Shown: one piece after another, positions 2,216 to 15,664 of the stretch | How the letters are laid out: each line of letters opens with the position of its first letter | Numbering within the stretch: position 1 is the stretch's first letter | IMG/VR virus record: IMGVR_UViG_2711768101_000011 | Direction: 5' to 3' (one strand) | Length of the DNA: 16,377 bases | DNA from: a virus | Lineage: Duplodnaviria; Heunggongvirae; Uroviricota; Caudoviricetes | Made by a program: the position numbers and the translations under genes | The notes under the pieces: model-generated | The model's input: the letters and a program-made list of their open reading frames with translations, nothing else | Told to the model about the DNA's origin: nothing | Database searches by the model: none

Positions 2216-2418
2216 ATTTTCACTTTTTTAAATCCAACGACAGACGGCTGGCATTTAAGTATTGTGAAATATTATCAAATGTAATCATCATTGATTTACA
2301 AAAGATACATTTTGCCCCGAAAGGATTCATGTCAGAAACATCAAAAGATGATGTTCTATACTGGGAACCATGACAACACGGGCATCTAAAGTGAATATGG
2401 TTTGTAATATTGTCTACC

Positions 2419-2631
2419 TCAAAGCGCCACTACATGAACAGCGGCAGGACCTTTAGGTCCGTTCTCAATACCAAATTCAACTTCCTGATTCTCAGTTAAT
2501 GTTTTGAAATCGTTGCTCTGAATTGCTGAGAAATGGACAAACACATCTTTGCTGCCATCTTTCGGCGTGATGAAACCAAAACCTTTTTCAGGGTTAAACC
2601 ATTTCACTAAACCAGTCATTTTGTTAGACAT
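2419..2631 (-). CDS. cspI: CspA-family cold shock protein (70 aa)
   Basis: [38 protein letters not shown]... carries RNP1/RNP2-type cold-shock domain motifs; AAGG Shine-Dalgarno; long AT-rich leader typical of csp genes; cspI versus cspB assignment is from context. Confidence 0.85.
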
Positions 2632-2992
2632 AATTATTACCTTTTGAAGAAATTAGCCCTTGGGCAGAATGGTCCGAAAAAAATATCAGAGAGAAAAACC
2701 AACAAGGAAATCTCAAGAGGTACAAATAATAAAATTATAACAATGACTGCTTCAGATAAATTTGTAACAAACCAGAACACCATTAACGCATGATTAACCA
2801 CCCATAGCAAGGATTACTTTTGTAAAGAAAAACACAGCAATGAAAGAATAGCTTTATTTATTAATAAAACGTGTCATTCTGATTAAGACCTTTTATCTTA
2901 CCCTTAAGATTTCAGGAATTTTGGCTCATGGAAGAGTCCTTTTTATTTAAATTTTACATTCCGCGATGTAAATGTTCCGATTTAATATTACC

Positions 2993-5154: not shown

Positions 5155-6350
<1,196 letters not shown>

Positions 6351-11080: not shown

Positions 11081-11149
11081 TAAGTGCGAGTGCGTTGAGG
11101 ATGCTTGCCACATCAGAGGTGGCGAGGGATTTCTCCCTCGCCGGGTCTC

Positions 11150-11305
11150 TTACTCCTCAGGTTCGTAAGCTGTGAAGACAGCGACCTCCGTCTGGTCGGT
11201 TCGGATTCGTACCTCGCAGAGGTCTTTCCTCGTTACCAGTGCCGTCACTATGACGGTTAAACAGATGACGATCAGGGCGATTAACATCGCCTTTTGCTGC
11301 TTCAT
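11150..11305 (-). CDS. hokD: Hok-family type I toxin (HokD/RelF-like, 51 aa)
   Basis: MKQQKAMLIALIVICLTVIVTALVTRKDLCEVRIRTDQTEVAVFTAYEPEE; AAGGAG Shine-Dalgarno before the internal ATG; the ORF-track ORF extends in frame upstream to 11362. Confidence 0.8.
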   Translation of the reverse strand: MKQQKAMLIALIVICLTVIVTALVTRKDLCEVRIRTDQTEVAVFTAYEPEE

Positions 11306-11480
11306 AGCCTGCTTCTCCTTGCCTTTCGGCACGTAAGAGGCTAACCTACATGTGTCTAGCATGAAATTGGCCTCAGATTAATGTTAAGCGTCTTGCAGGA
11401 CGCGTAATGTTAACTGGGGCTTTTCTCTATCTGCCGTTGATGTTCATGCCCGAGGCAGATAGCCTCAAGCACCCGCAGCC
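11306..11480 (-). promoter_or_regulatory. hok mRNA leader region with structured elements (possible antisense/sok-equivalent region)
   Basis: Perfect 9-bp inverted repeat CTATCTGCC (11427-11435) / GGCAGATAG (11454-11462); hok loci are known to be controlled through leader structure and an antisense RNA; no sok promoter was positively identified. Confidence 0.3.
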
Positions 11481-11802
11481 ATTCTACTTAACTACCGTTA
11501 CCTCTCCAATATGAAATCAATCAGAAAGGTGATCCATAAGAACAATAACAAGACAATAAATTGCCATTACAGCCACAATAGCCAGCGTGCATTTGAGAAC
11601 CAGCACATAAATCTCCTGCTCTTGACGTATACAGGCACTGATAAATATGTGTCTTCGTGCTCGTTACTTCAATACGTAAGCGTCAGTTGCGCGTAATCAA
11701 ATCAGACAACCGACTTTAAACCAGGGACAAACAGCAGGTAAAATAATCAAACGTTATTTTAAGCCATATCATGGCTGCAAGATTTCCTCTAATTTCAACA
11801 AG

Positions 11803-11839
11803 ATGAGCAGGTCATTGCTTGCACTGATGACCTGCTCAT
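11803..11839. repeat. Perfect 13-bp inverted repeat (hairpin or protein-binding palindrome)
   Basis: ATGAGCAGGTCAT - 11 nt - ATGACCTGCTCAT, seen directly; about 80 nt downstream of the QueH-like gene stop. Confidence 0.6.
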
Positions 11840-11917
11840 TAATCATGATTATTTGAAAATTAAGGTAGGCGTACTATATATAGAAACACTGCTACGCTCC
11901 GTTGGCATAATATAAAA

Positions 11918-12601
11918 TCATTCCTGGCCTTCTTTACCGTAGTGGAGTTGACCAATTTTGATTAGAGGGCGTCCCTGAGATTTGCGGTGTAGATTGGTAT
12001 CGCGCAGTGAATACACGCAGCCACAATATTCCTGCTGATAGAATTGTTCGCGCTTGCTGATTTCAATCATGCGGGAAGAGCCGCCCTGCTTTCGCCAGTT
12101 ATAATCCCAGTACACCATGCCCGGATAATACGCGACGGCTCGCCGTCCACAGTCGTTAACCTGCTGCATATTTTTCCAGCGTGAAATGCCCAGTGAGCTA
12201 CTGATCACACTGAAACCATTTTCAGCGGCATACAGCGCAGTCCGCTCAAAACGCATGTCAAAACACATGGTACAACGGATCCCTCGTTCAGGCTCCCATT
12301 CCATTCCTTTGGCTCGCTCAAACCAGTTGTCTGTGTCGTAATCAGCATCAATAAATGGCACGCCGTGTTGTTTAGCAAAGCGAATATTCTCATCCTTACG
12401 AATTAAATACTCTTTCTGAGGATGAATGTTCGGGTTGTAGAAAAAGATGGTGTAGTCGATTCCCGAGGCCTGAAGCGCCTCCATCACTTCACCGGAACAT
12501 GGAGCACAGCAAGAGTGCAGTAATAGTTTTTTTGCCCCGTTTGGGAGCTCCAATTTGGGGCGTTTGAAATCAGCAACAGTCATAAATGTGTTTATGAGGT
12601 T
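11918..12601 (-). CDS. DUF208 / QueH-like Fe-S protein (epoxyqueuosine-reductase-like)
   Basis: [13 protein letters not shown] motif near the N-terminus plus CTMC and YCGC Cys motifs, consistent with the DUF208 (QueH) family as I remember it; start uncertain (12601 or 12580), no clear Shine-Dalgarno. Confidence 0.6.
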
Positions 12602-12636: not shown

Positions 12637-12870
12637 CTATCGGAAACAGATGTCTAAATCTGGTAATGTCTGCTTTTGATGCAAAGCAGACAACCACGGC
12701 AGCGCACGAAAATCAGCGATAATGTCGGGATTAATAATCGGGTGACGTCCATCACATAGCGAATGTTCCTCTTTCCTGATATCGCTAAATATCGACCATT
12801 CGTCATTCTTATCGAACCAGAGCATGCGACTGCCACAGCACATGTCGAGAATGGTAGCCGATGTACTCAC
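12637..12870 (-). CDS. Hypothetical small Cys-rich protein (77 aa)
   Basis: GTG start overlapping the upstream stop (GTGA) with GGGAGG Shine-Dalgarno inside the upstream gene; motif [14 protein letters not shown] loosely resembles a SAM-binding motif I but the protein is too short for a methyltransferase. Confidence 0.4.
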
Positions 12871-15020: not shown

Positions 15021-15040
15021 TTGTTAGACTTTTCTAACAT
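15021..15040. promoter_or_regulatory. Operator-like palindrome in the dicC-dicA intergenic region
   Basis: TGTTAGA-CTTT-TCTAACA perfect 7-bp inverted repeat between the divergent repressor and cro-like genes. Confidence 0.45.
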
Positions 15041-15496: not shown

Positions 15497-15531
15497 CATT
15501 CTTTTCAAGTGATTAGTTGCGCCCACTCTTT

Positions 15532-15551
15532 TTGTTAGATCAATCTAACAA
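15532..15551. promoter_or_regulatory. Second operator-like palindrome downstream of dicA, upstream of the ydfA-like gene
   Basis: TTGTTAGA-TCAA-TCTAACAA perfect 8-bp inverted repeat, same half-site as at 15021-15040; a degenerate third copy TGTTAGG-TTAT-TCTAAAT at 15570-15587. Confidence 0.45.
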
Positions 15552-15664
15552 AAAACACTTGCCTCTCATGTTAGGTTATTCTAAATTACTTTCCATCAAG
15601 ACACCGCACGGTGTTCTCAGCAAACAGTTCCGCGACCCCGGCGTTAAGGGGAAATGAGGTCAGC

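What the first reader, a model, noticed from the sequence alone, without database searches (positions are those of the whole stretch)
11803..11839. Perfect 13-bp inverted repeat in the non-coding gap between the QueH-like gene and hok
ATGAGCAGGTCAT-N11-ATGACCTGCTCAT is a perfect palindrome in an otherwise ORF-free 550-bp stretch, with a smaller GCCAT-ATC-ATGGC palindrome nearby at 11763-11775. It has no convincing U tract on either strand, so it may be a protein-binding site or an RNA processing or stability element rather than a simple terminator. It could mark a module boundary.
Basis: seen in the sequence. Interest (0 to 1): 0.35.

Follow-up and report, generated by a model that had tools for sequence, protein, structure and literature searches.

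The report
Stem-loop downstream of prophage queH gene
The perfect 13-bp inverted repeat is real, but it is an ordinary stem-loop in a dispensable, near-neutrally evolving spacer just after a prophage-borne queH gene, most likely a weak terminator or RNA-end-protecting hairpin and not a new kind of element.

Summary
The repeat ATGAGCAGGTCAT-N11-ATGACCTGCTCAT is at 11803-11839 as described. It is the longest close perfect inverted repeat in the window and is rare by chance (2 of 300 simulated windows).

The window is a Qin-like lambdoid prophage, as in E. coli B REL606, with its early genes on the minus strand. The repeat lies 78 nt downstream of the queH stop codon. It sits about 130 nt upstream of the predicted promoter of a conserved 29-codon membrane ORF, which in turn directly precedes the hokD/sok locus.

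Three results argue against a special role:
- The roughly 230-bp block that holds the repeat occurs in only 116 of the 995 E. coli genomes carrying this queH. Most relatives have a 372-bp deletion that removes it.
- Only two lineages of the block exist. They differ by 22%, about the same as queH third-codon positions.
- In the second lineage the repeat is reduced to an 8-10-bp stem.

No U tract, dispersed copies, Rfam family or operator similarity was found.

Best reading: an RNA hairpin in the queH 3' flank, acting as a leaky terminator or a 3'-end barrier. Main rival: a functionless quasi-palindrome. Interest is low.

The parts
11803..11815 (.). Left arm of the perfect inverted repeat (ATGAGCAGGTCAT)
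   Evidence: Invariant between the two lineages.
11816..11826 (.). 11-nt spacer, the loop of the hairpin
   Evidence: 3 of 11 positions differ in lineage B.
11827..11839 (.). Right arm (ATGACCTGCTCAT); it reads GTGACCTGCCTAT in lineage B
   Evidence: Three substitutions, at 11827, 11836 and 11837, leave an 8-10-bp stem.
11786..11865 (.). Possible extended imperfect stem around the repeat: 11786-11798 pairs with 11853-11865 (77% complementary)
   Evidence: I5. Consensus folds show one compensatory change, T-A to G-C, at 11788/11863. This rests on two lineages only and is weak.
11840..11851 (.). Perfect 12-bp palindrome TAATCATGATTA abutting the right arm; broken in lineage B (TAGTCATGATGA)
   Evidence: Read; variant sequence.
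11763..11775 (-). Small hairpin GCCAU-GAU-AUGGC. All three lineage-B substitutions keep pairing on the minus-strand RNA: C-G to U-A, plus a U.G pair.
11680..11911 (.). The 'IR block': non-coding spacer found only downstream of queH in 116 E. coli genomes and phage HannyBb, in two lineages that are 78% identical
11540..11911 (.). 372-bp segment missing from the common short form of the locus. The junction shows T(T/C)TTAT microhomology.
11918..12583 (-). queH (epoxyqueuosine reductase, Pfam PF02677), the gene upstream of the hairpin on the coding strand
   Evidence: E = 2.7e-65. RefSeq annotation.
11517..11606 (-). Conserved 29-codon hydrophobic ORF (MLVLKCTLAIVAVMAIYCLVIVLMDHLSD) with a GTG start and an AGGAG Shine-Dalgarno sequence at 11613-11617
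11644..11672 (-). Predicted promoter of the small ORF: TTGAAG (11672 to 11667), 17-nt spacer, CATATT (11649 to 11644). It is kept in 4 of 5 variants even though their spacers have diverged.
   Evidence: Read from the alignment and the sequence. This is an inference.
11300..11474 (-). hok mRNA leader / sok antisense region
   Evidence: Rfam RF01794, 114.3 bits. A hok promoter-like site lies at 11508 to 11481.
11150..11362 (-). mok/hokD coding region. A canonical terminator follows at 11081 to 11064.

Best explanation
The repeat forms an RNA stem-loop in the 3' untranslated flank of the prophage queH gene, on the minus strand, which is the coding strand of the early-right operon. Without a U tract it is at best a weak, leaky terminator. 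Its more likely effect is as a stable 3' hairpin that halts 3'-to-5' exonucleases. It would then define or protect the 3' end of queH transcripts and partly insulate the small membrane ORF, hokD and the Q antiterminator gene downstream. Antiterminated polymerases would read through it during lytic growth. What is shown: the position, the stability, the absence of a U tract and the dispensability. What is inferred: the strand on which it acts and the effect on RNA.
For: - The hairpin lies 78 nt after the queH stop codon and about 130 nt before the next predicted promoter, in non-coding sequence.
- It is very stable, at -21.5 to -23.4 kcal/mol with z-scores of -3.6 to -4.7, and a perfect repeat this long is rare by chance (2 of 300 simulations).
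- A stable 8-10-bp core (GCAGGTCA/TGACCTGC) persists at the same position in the lineage that is 22% diverged.
- The neighbouring small hairpin at 11763-11775 keeps all its pairs on the minus-strand RNA through three substitutions, one of them compensatory.
- The consensus fold of the block has more compensatory pairs than column-shuffled alignments: 6 against 2.6, p about 0.02-0.03.
- The 25-codon ORF that overlaps the repeat is not conserved as a protein, so the element is non-coding (read).
- It is not a dispersed repeat and does not resemble the prophage operators.
Against: - There is no U tract on either strand, and lineage B loses three more bases of the weak U-rich tail.
- The arms are not significantly better conserved than the rest of the block: 23/26 against 189/246, Fisher p = 0.22.
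- The block as a whole diverges as fast as queH third-codon positions: 22% against 19%.
- About 88% of E. coli genomes with this queH lack the block entirely, so any function is dispensable.
- The three substitutions in lineage B are slightly more compatible with a plus-strand RNA (two G.U pairs) than a minus-strand one (one G.U pair).
- No transcript data were available.
Confidence: 0.45

Rival explanations
1. The repeat is a functionless quasi-palindrome. Its perfect 13-bp state in this lineage arose by mutation, for example a single template-switch ('quasi-palindrome correction') event that copied one arm from the other. It persists because the lineage is young and the spacer is neutral.
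For: - All three differences between the lineages lie in one arm, as a single templated event would produce.
- The block evolves at the synonymous-like rate of queH.
- Conservation of the arms does not differ from the background (p = 0.22).
- The block is absent from most queH prophages.
- Only two lineages exist in every collection searched.
- Quasi-palindrome correction in E. coli is established knowledge, recalled from memory and not tested here.
Against: - A stable core stem is retained in both lineages at the same place.
- There are small hints of compensatory change in the flanking helices.
- Its position directly after a gene and before a promoter is where functional hairpins usually sit.
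Confidence: 0.3
2. The hairpin acts on the plus strand, as the terminator or stabilising stem of an RNA antisense to the early-right operon.
For: - The plus-strand hairpin is longer and more stable: 15 bp including two G.U pairs, -23.4 kcal/mol.
- Two of the three lineage-B substitutions are G.U-compatible on the plus strand.
- The consensus-fold z-score is stronger on the plus strand: -3.4 against -2.3.
Against: - No plus-strand promoter is conserved upstream. TTTAAA-18-TAAAAT at 11715-11744 is degraded in lineage B, and TTGACG at 11623 reads TGGACG in other variants.
- There is no U tract.
- The block has no complementarity to the small ORF or hok regions beyond what antisense overlap would give.
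Confidence: 0.08
3. The repeat is a DNA binding site for a dimeric or tetrameric phage or host protein. Each arm is itself ATGA-N5-TCAT.
For: The symmetry is perfect. Each arm has internal ATGA/TCAT symmetry, and a further TCATGA palindrome follows at 11844-11849. A 12/13 match, or 15/17 with flanks, occurs at 5166-5178.
Against: - It is not in a promoter region.
- Both ATGA/TCAT motifs of the right arm are mutated in lineage B.
- It is unrelated to the prophage operators.
- The second site is a lone half-site inside a coding region.
- The half-site centres are 24 bp apart, which is atypical for a single dimer.
Confidence: 0.07
4. The composite 80-nt dyad (outer stem 11786-11798/11853-11865 plus the inner repeat) is an RNase III-type processing or retroregulation site that uncouples queH mRNA from the toxin genes downstream.
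For: - An outer imperfect stem with one compensatory pair encloses the repeat.
- The lack of a U tract fits a processing site better than a terminator.
- Lambda sib is a precedent in lambdoid phages (recalled from memory).
Against: - The two helices are separated by a 13 x 4-nt asymmetric loop, so they do not form a continuous duplex of about 20 bp (read).
- The outer stem is AU-rich and partly lost in lineage B.
- The minimum-free-energy folds do not consistently choose it.
Confidence: 0.1

Closest known systems
Intercistronic or 3'-UTR stabiliser hairpins in E. coli operons (for example the malE-malF REP hairpin, and 3' ends trimmed back to a stem after Rho-dependent termination)
   Same: A stable stem-loop without a U tract, just downstream of a coding region, that would block 3' exonucleases.
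   Different: It is not a member of the REP/BIME repeat family. It is single-copy and found only in this prophage spacer. No effect on RNA stability has been shown.
Terminators of the lambda nin region (tR2, tR3, tR4) between the replication genes and Q
   Same: The same map position in a lambdoid early-right operon, between the replication-gene module and Q. It would be read through by antiterminated polymerase.
   Different: The U tract and short loop of an intrinsic terminator are missing. There is no sequence similarity. Most related prophages do without it.
Moron architecture in lambdoid phages (an accessory gene flanked by its own promoter and terminator)
   Same: queH is an accessory gene inserted in the nin-like region and is followed by a hairpin. 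The next unit, the small ORF plus hok/sok, has its own promoters and a canonical terminator.
   Different: The hairpin is not a canonical terminator. A promoter for queH is only weakly suggested.
Quasi-palindrome (template-switch) mutation hotspots
   Same: An imperfect repeat in one lineage matches a perfect one in the other, with all the differences clustered in one arm.
   Different: The direction of change cannot be determined without an outgroup.

Membership tests
Rho-independent (intrinsic) terminator | G+C-rich stem of about 5-14 bp directly downstream of a transcription unit | tested here: met
   13-bp stem with 6 G-C pairs, 78 nt after the queH stop codon.
Rho-independent (intrinsic) terminator | Short loop of about 3-8 nt | tested here: not met
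   The spacer is 11 nt, or 9 nt after the G.U extension on the plus strand.
Rho-independent (intrinsic) terminator | U tract immediately 3' of the stem | tested here: not met
   The tails are CUUGUUGA (minus) and UAAUCAUG (plus). The scan finds no site here, while hok has a canonical one at 11081 to 11064.
Rho-independent (intrinsic) terminator | Transcript 3' ends map at the tail | not testable with these tools
   No Term-seq or RNA-seq data were available.
REP/BIME or MITE-like dispersed palindromic repeats | Many copies dispersed in intergenic regions of the host genome | tested here: not met
   A 286-nt query containing the repeat hits only 118 places in 116 of 5426 E. coli genomes, all of them the same locus. 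There is none in plasmids. Metagenome matches to the 18-mer outside this locus share no flanking similarity.
hok/sok type I toxin-antitoxin locus (Rfam RF01794) | The element lies within the conserved hok mRNA or sok RNA | tested here: not met
   The Rfam match spans 11300-11474, and the repeat is 330 nt upstream of it. Most hok loci that carry the small ORF lack the IR block.
Any described RNA family (Rfam 15) | Covariance-model match at or near the gathering score | tested here: not met
   Only sub-threshold chance hits to eukaryotic snoRNA and miRNA models, E of 0.29 or higher.
Phage repressor/Cro operator | Sequence related to the immunity-region operators, and a position in a promoter | tested here: not met
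   The operators are of the GTTAGA-N4-TCTAAC type. No promoter is adjacent to the repeat.
RNase III processing site | About 20 bp or more of near-continuous double-stranded RNA | tested here: inconclusive
   The inner stem is 13-15 bp and the outer imperfect stem 9-12 bp, but they are separated by an asymmetric internal loop.
Protein-coding small ORF (25 codons, 11846 to 11769 on the minus strand) | Purifying selection at the protein level | tested here: not met
   Between the lineages there are about 8 non-synonymous changes, 1 synonymous change and a premature stop, and no Shine-Dalgarno sequence (read).

The most novel reading that the evidence does not exclude
The roughly 230-bp queH-proximal block (11680-11911), with the 13-bp hairpin at its core, is a structured cis-regulatory RNA. 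It would be a processing or retroregulation element that sets the ratio of queH message to read-through into the downstream membrane-peptide and hok toxin genes. The two lineages would preserve its helices by compensatory change.
Probability: 0.1. Interest if true: 0.4.

Novelty: new member of a known kind. Interest (0 to 1): 0.12.

Why it matters
It matters little as it stands. If the hairpin does define queH transcript ends, it is one more example of how accessory genes are insulated inside lambdoid prophages so that read-through does not reach toxin genes and the Q antiterminator. The more useful by-products are the map of this mosaic region and a widespread small membrane ORF next to hokD that current RefSeq annotation leaves out.

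Tried and rejected
- Canonical terminator: rejected, because there is no U tract and the loop is long.
- Rfam families: only noise.
- Dispersed repeat or mobile element: rejected. The repeat is single-locus. The flanking TTAT microhomology marks a deletion, not an insertion, because the small ORF that spans the junction is intact in thousands of genomes.
- Origin with chromosomal queH: rejected. No similar downstream sequence or hairpin was found in 80 loci from other species.
- More divergent homologues for a covariation test: none found. Viral contigs, metagenomes, phages, plasmids and a covariance model over 51 loci were all searched.
- Long-range pairing of 11741-11749 with 11846-11854, seen in the plus-strand fold: rejected, with four mismatches in lineage B.
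- Fur-box resemblance of TAATCATGATTA: weak and not conserved.
- Trans-antisense pairing with the small ORF or hok: none found.
- Literature searches for the peptide, for queH in prophages and for hokD small proteins: nothing relevant.

Full report
**Observation.** The sequence at 11803-11839 is ATGAGCAGGTCAT, then TGCTTGCACTG, then ATGACCTGCTCAT. This is a perfect 13-bp inverted repeat with an 11-nt spacer. The smaller GCCAT-ATC-ATGGC palindrome is at 11763-11775. The repeat is the longest perfect close inverted repeat in the window. In 300 first-order Markov simulations of the window, only 2 produced a perfect repeat of 13 bp or more with a 3-20-nt loop. As RNA the isolated hairpin folds at -21.5 kcal/mol on the minus strand. 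On the plus strand it folds at -23.4 kcal/mol, where two G.U pairs extend the stem to 15 bp. Neither strand has a U tract after the stem, and the terminator scan reports nothing here. The same scan finds the canonical hok terminator at 11081 to 11064.

**Context.**
- The window matches a Qin-like lambdoid prophage of E. coli B REL606 and relatives, and phage HannyBb.
- The early-right operon is on the minus strand. Its order is cro, a YdaT/cII-like gene, an O-like gene, DUF977, a methyltransferase fragment, queH (11918-12583; Pfam QueH, E = 2.7e-65), the gap, mok/hokD (11150-11362), rem, DUF968 and the Q antiterminator.
- The gap is not empty. Rfam places the hok leader/sok region at 11300-11474.
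- A 29-codon hydrophobic ORF lies at 11517-11606 on the minus strand, with a GTG start and an AGGAG Shine-Dalgarno sequence. It keeps its length and frame across six variants, with synonymous or conservative changes only.
- The segment carrying this ORF (11500 to about 11678) is present in 2640 of 5426 complete E. coli genomes. In every locus examined with an intact downstream flank it sits just upstream of hokD, and RefSeq does not annotate it. Older GenBank records for REL606 and BL21 call it a conserved hypothetical or membrane protein.
- A minus-strand promoter-like pair is kept in 4 of 5 variants even though their spacers have diverged: TTGAAG (11672 to 11667), a 17-nt spacer, and CATATT (11649 to 11644) (my inference).
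- On the coding strand the repeat therefore lies 78 nt after the queH stop codon and about 130 nt before the next predicted promoter.

**Distribution.**
- The non-coding block that holds the repeat (about 11680-11911) occurs in 116 of 5426 E. coli genomes and in one phage record. This queH occurs in 995 genomes.
- In 67 of 80 viral contigs with the closest queH genes, and in E. albertii, queH is joined directly to window position 11539. Positions 11540-11911 are missing, and the junction shows T(T/C)TTAT microhomology.
- The small ORF that spans that junction is intact in thousands of genomes, so the short form is a deletion.
- The deletion removes the repeat, the small-ORF promoter and most of the small ORF. 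Whatever the hairpin does is therefore dispensable.
- The mosaic junctions lie at about 11911/11912, about 11677, 11539/11540 and about 11513. The repeat is inside a variable spacer, not at a boundary.

**Comparative test.**
- Only two lineages of the block were found in E. coli genomes, phage records, viral contigs and metagenomes, and plasmid records held no copy at all.
- A covariance model built from the two lineages found nothing else in 51 loci.
- Lineage B (41 genomes) is 78% identical over the block.
- The queH genes of the two lineages differ at 19% of third-codon positions. The block therefore evolves at roughly the neutral rate.
- In lineage B the left arm is unchanged and the right arm reads GTGACCTGCCTAT. 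This leaves an 8-10-bp stem of -15 to -18 kcal/mol.
- Arm conservation (23/26) is not significantly above the rest of the block (189/246; Fisher p = 0.22).
- Two of the three substitutions are G.U-compatible on the plus strand and one on the minus strand, which is not informative.
- There are weak hints of structure. The small hairpin at 11763-11775 keeps all five pairs on the minus-strand RNA through three substitutions, including a C-G to U-A change. An outer imperfect stem (11786-11798 with 11853-11865) has one T-A to G-C change. The two-lineage consensus fold has 6 compensatory pairs against 2.6 in column-shuffled controls, p about 0.02-0.03.
- With two lineages and a prediction that rewards covariation, this is suggestive only.

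**Exclusions.**
- It is not a canonical intrinsic terminator.
- It is not a dispersed REP- or MITE-like repeat.
- It matches no Rfam family.
- It is unrelated to the prophage operators, which are of the GTTAGA-N4-TCTAAC type.
- It did not arrive with queH from a chromosomal source.
- The 25-codon ORF that overlaps it is not conserved as a protein.
- The block has no complementarity to the small ORF or hok regions.
- A 12/13 match to one arm at 5166-5178 is a lone half-site inside a coding region.

**Interpretation.**
- The best-supported reading (confidence about 0.45) is an RNA stem-loop in the queH 3' flank on the coding strand. It would be at most a leaky terminator. More likely it is a barrier to 3' exonucleases that defines or protects queH transcript ends and partly insulates the small ORF, hokD and Q.
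- The main rival (about 0.3) is a functionless quasi-palindrome. All three inter-lineage differences lie in one arm. That is what a single template-switch correction would produce, and the block otherwise looks neutral.
- Minor rivals are a plus-strand antisense RNA hairpin, a protein-binding site, and an RNase III-type composite site.
- The comparison with lambda nin-region terminators, stabiliser hairpins, moron architecture and quasi-palindrome mutation rests on established knowledge recalled from memory, not on tests here.

**Verdict.** The feature is real and statistically unusual. It is an ordinary, dispensable stem-loop in a mosaic prophage spacer: a new, uncharacterised member of a known kind. 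Interest is low (0.12).

Noticed in passing
window 11517-11606 (minus strand); promoter-like 11644-11672: A 29-codon hydrophobic ORF (MLVLKCTLAIVAVMAIYCLVIVLMDHLSD) sits immediately upstream of the hokD promoter. It keeps its length and frame across variants. Its segment is in 2640 of 5426 E. coli genomes but is unannotated in RefSeq; older GenBank records call it a membrane or hypothetical protein. Its stop codon is only 43 nt from the hok mRNA 5' end, so its transcript must run into the hok locus. It could be a small membrane protein or a type I toxin-like peptide; no function is known.
   Followed up: partly
window 11540-11911: Most queH-carrying prophages (67 of 80 viral contigs, and E. 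albertii) have a 372-bp deletion between short T(T/C)TTAT repeats. It fuses the queH stop region to the last six codons of the small ORF and removes that ORF's promoter and N-terminus.
   Followed up: yes
window 11918-12583 (minus strand): The prophage queH is 75-96% identical in protein to chromosomal QueH across many Proteobacteria. It is present in 995 of 5426 E. coli genomes, a species recalled (not tested here) to use QueG rather than QueH. It is therefore a widespread accessory gene in the nin-like region. The mechanical ORF extends to a GTG at 12697 (259 aa), but the annotated start is the ATG at 12583.
   Followed up: partly
window 2392-2776 (minus strand): Rfam cspA thermoregulator match (RF01766, 114 bits). 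This indicates a prophage-borne cold-shock gene 5' UTR, of the cspI/ydfK type.
   Followed up: no
window 5166-5178 (plus strand): ATAAGCAGGTCAT matches the left arm at 12 of 13 positions, or 15 of 17 with flanks, inside a coding region. About 0.02 such matches are expected by my own estimate. It is not palindromic there and is probably chance.
   Followed up: partly
window 15529-15554 and 15022-15040: A perfect 12-bp inverted repeat TTTTTGTTAGAT/ATCTAACAAAAA shares the GTTAGA/TCTAAC motif with the dyad between the cro-like and repressor genes. These are probably two operator sites of the immunity region.
   Followed up: no
window 11840-11851: A perfect 12-bp palindrome TAATCATGATTA directly abuts the right arm of the repeat. 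It resembles a Fur box only weakly and is broken in the divergent lineage.
   Followed up: partly
L003/L004 (E. coli 746 and 13TMH22), locus positions about 2830-2870: In lineage B the small ORF is followed by a convergent DUF1971 gene with a T8-tailed terminator instead of hok. The small ORF is therefore not strictly tied to hok.
   Followed up: no
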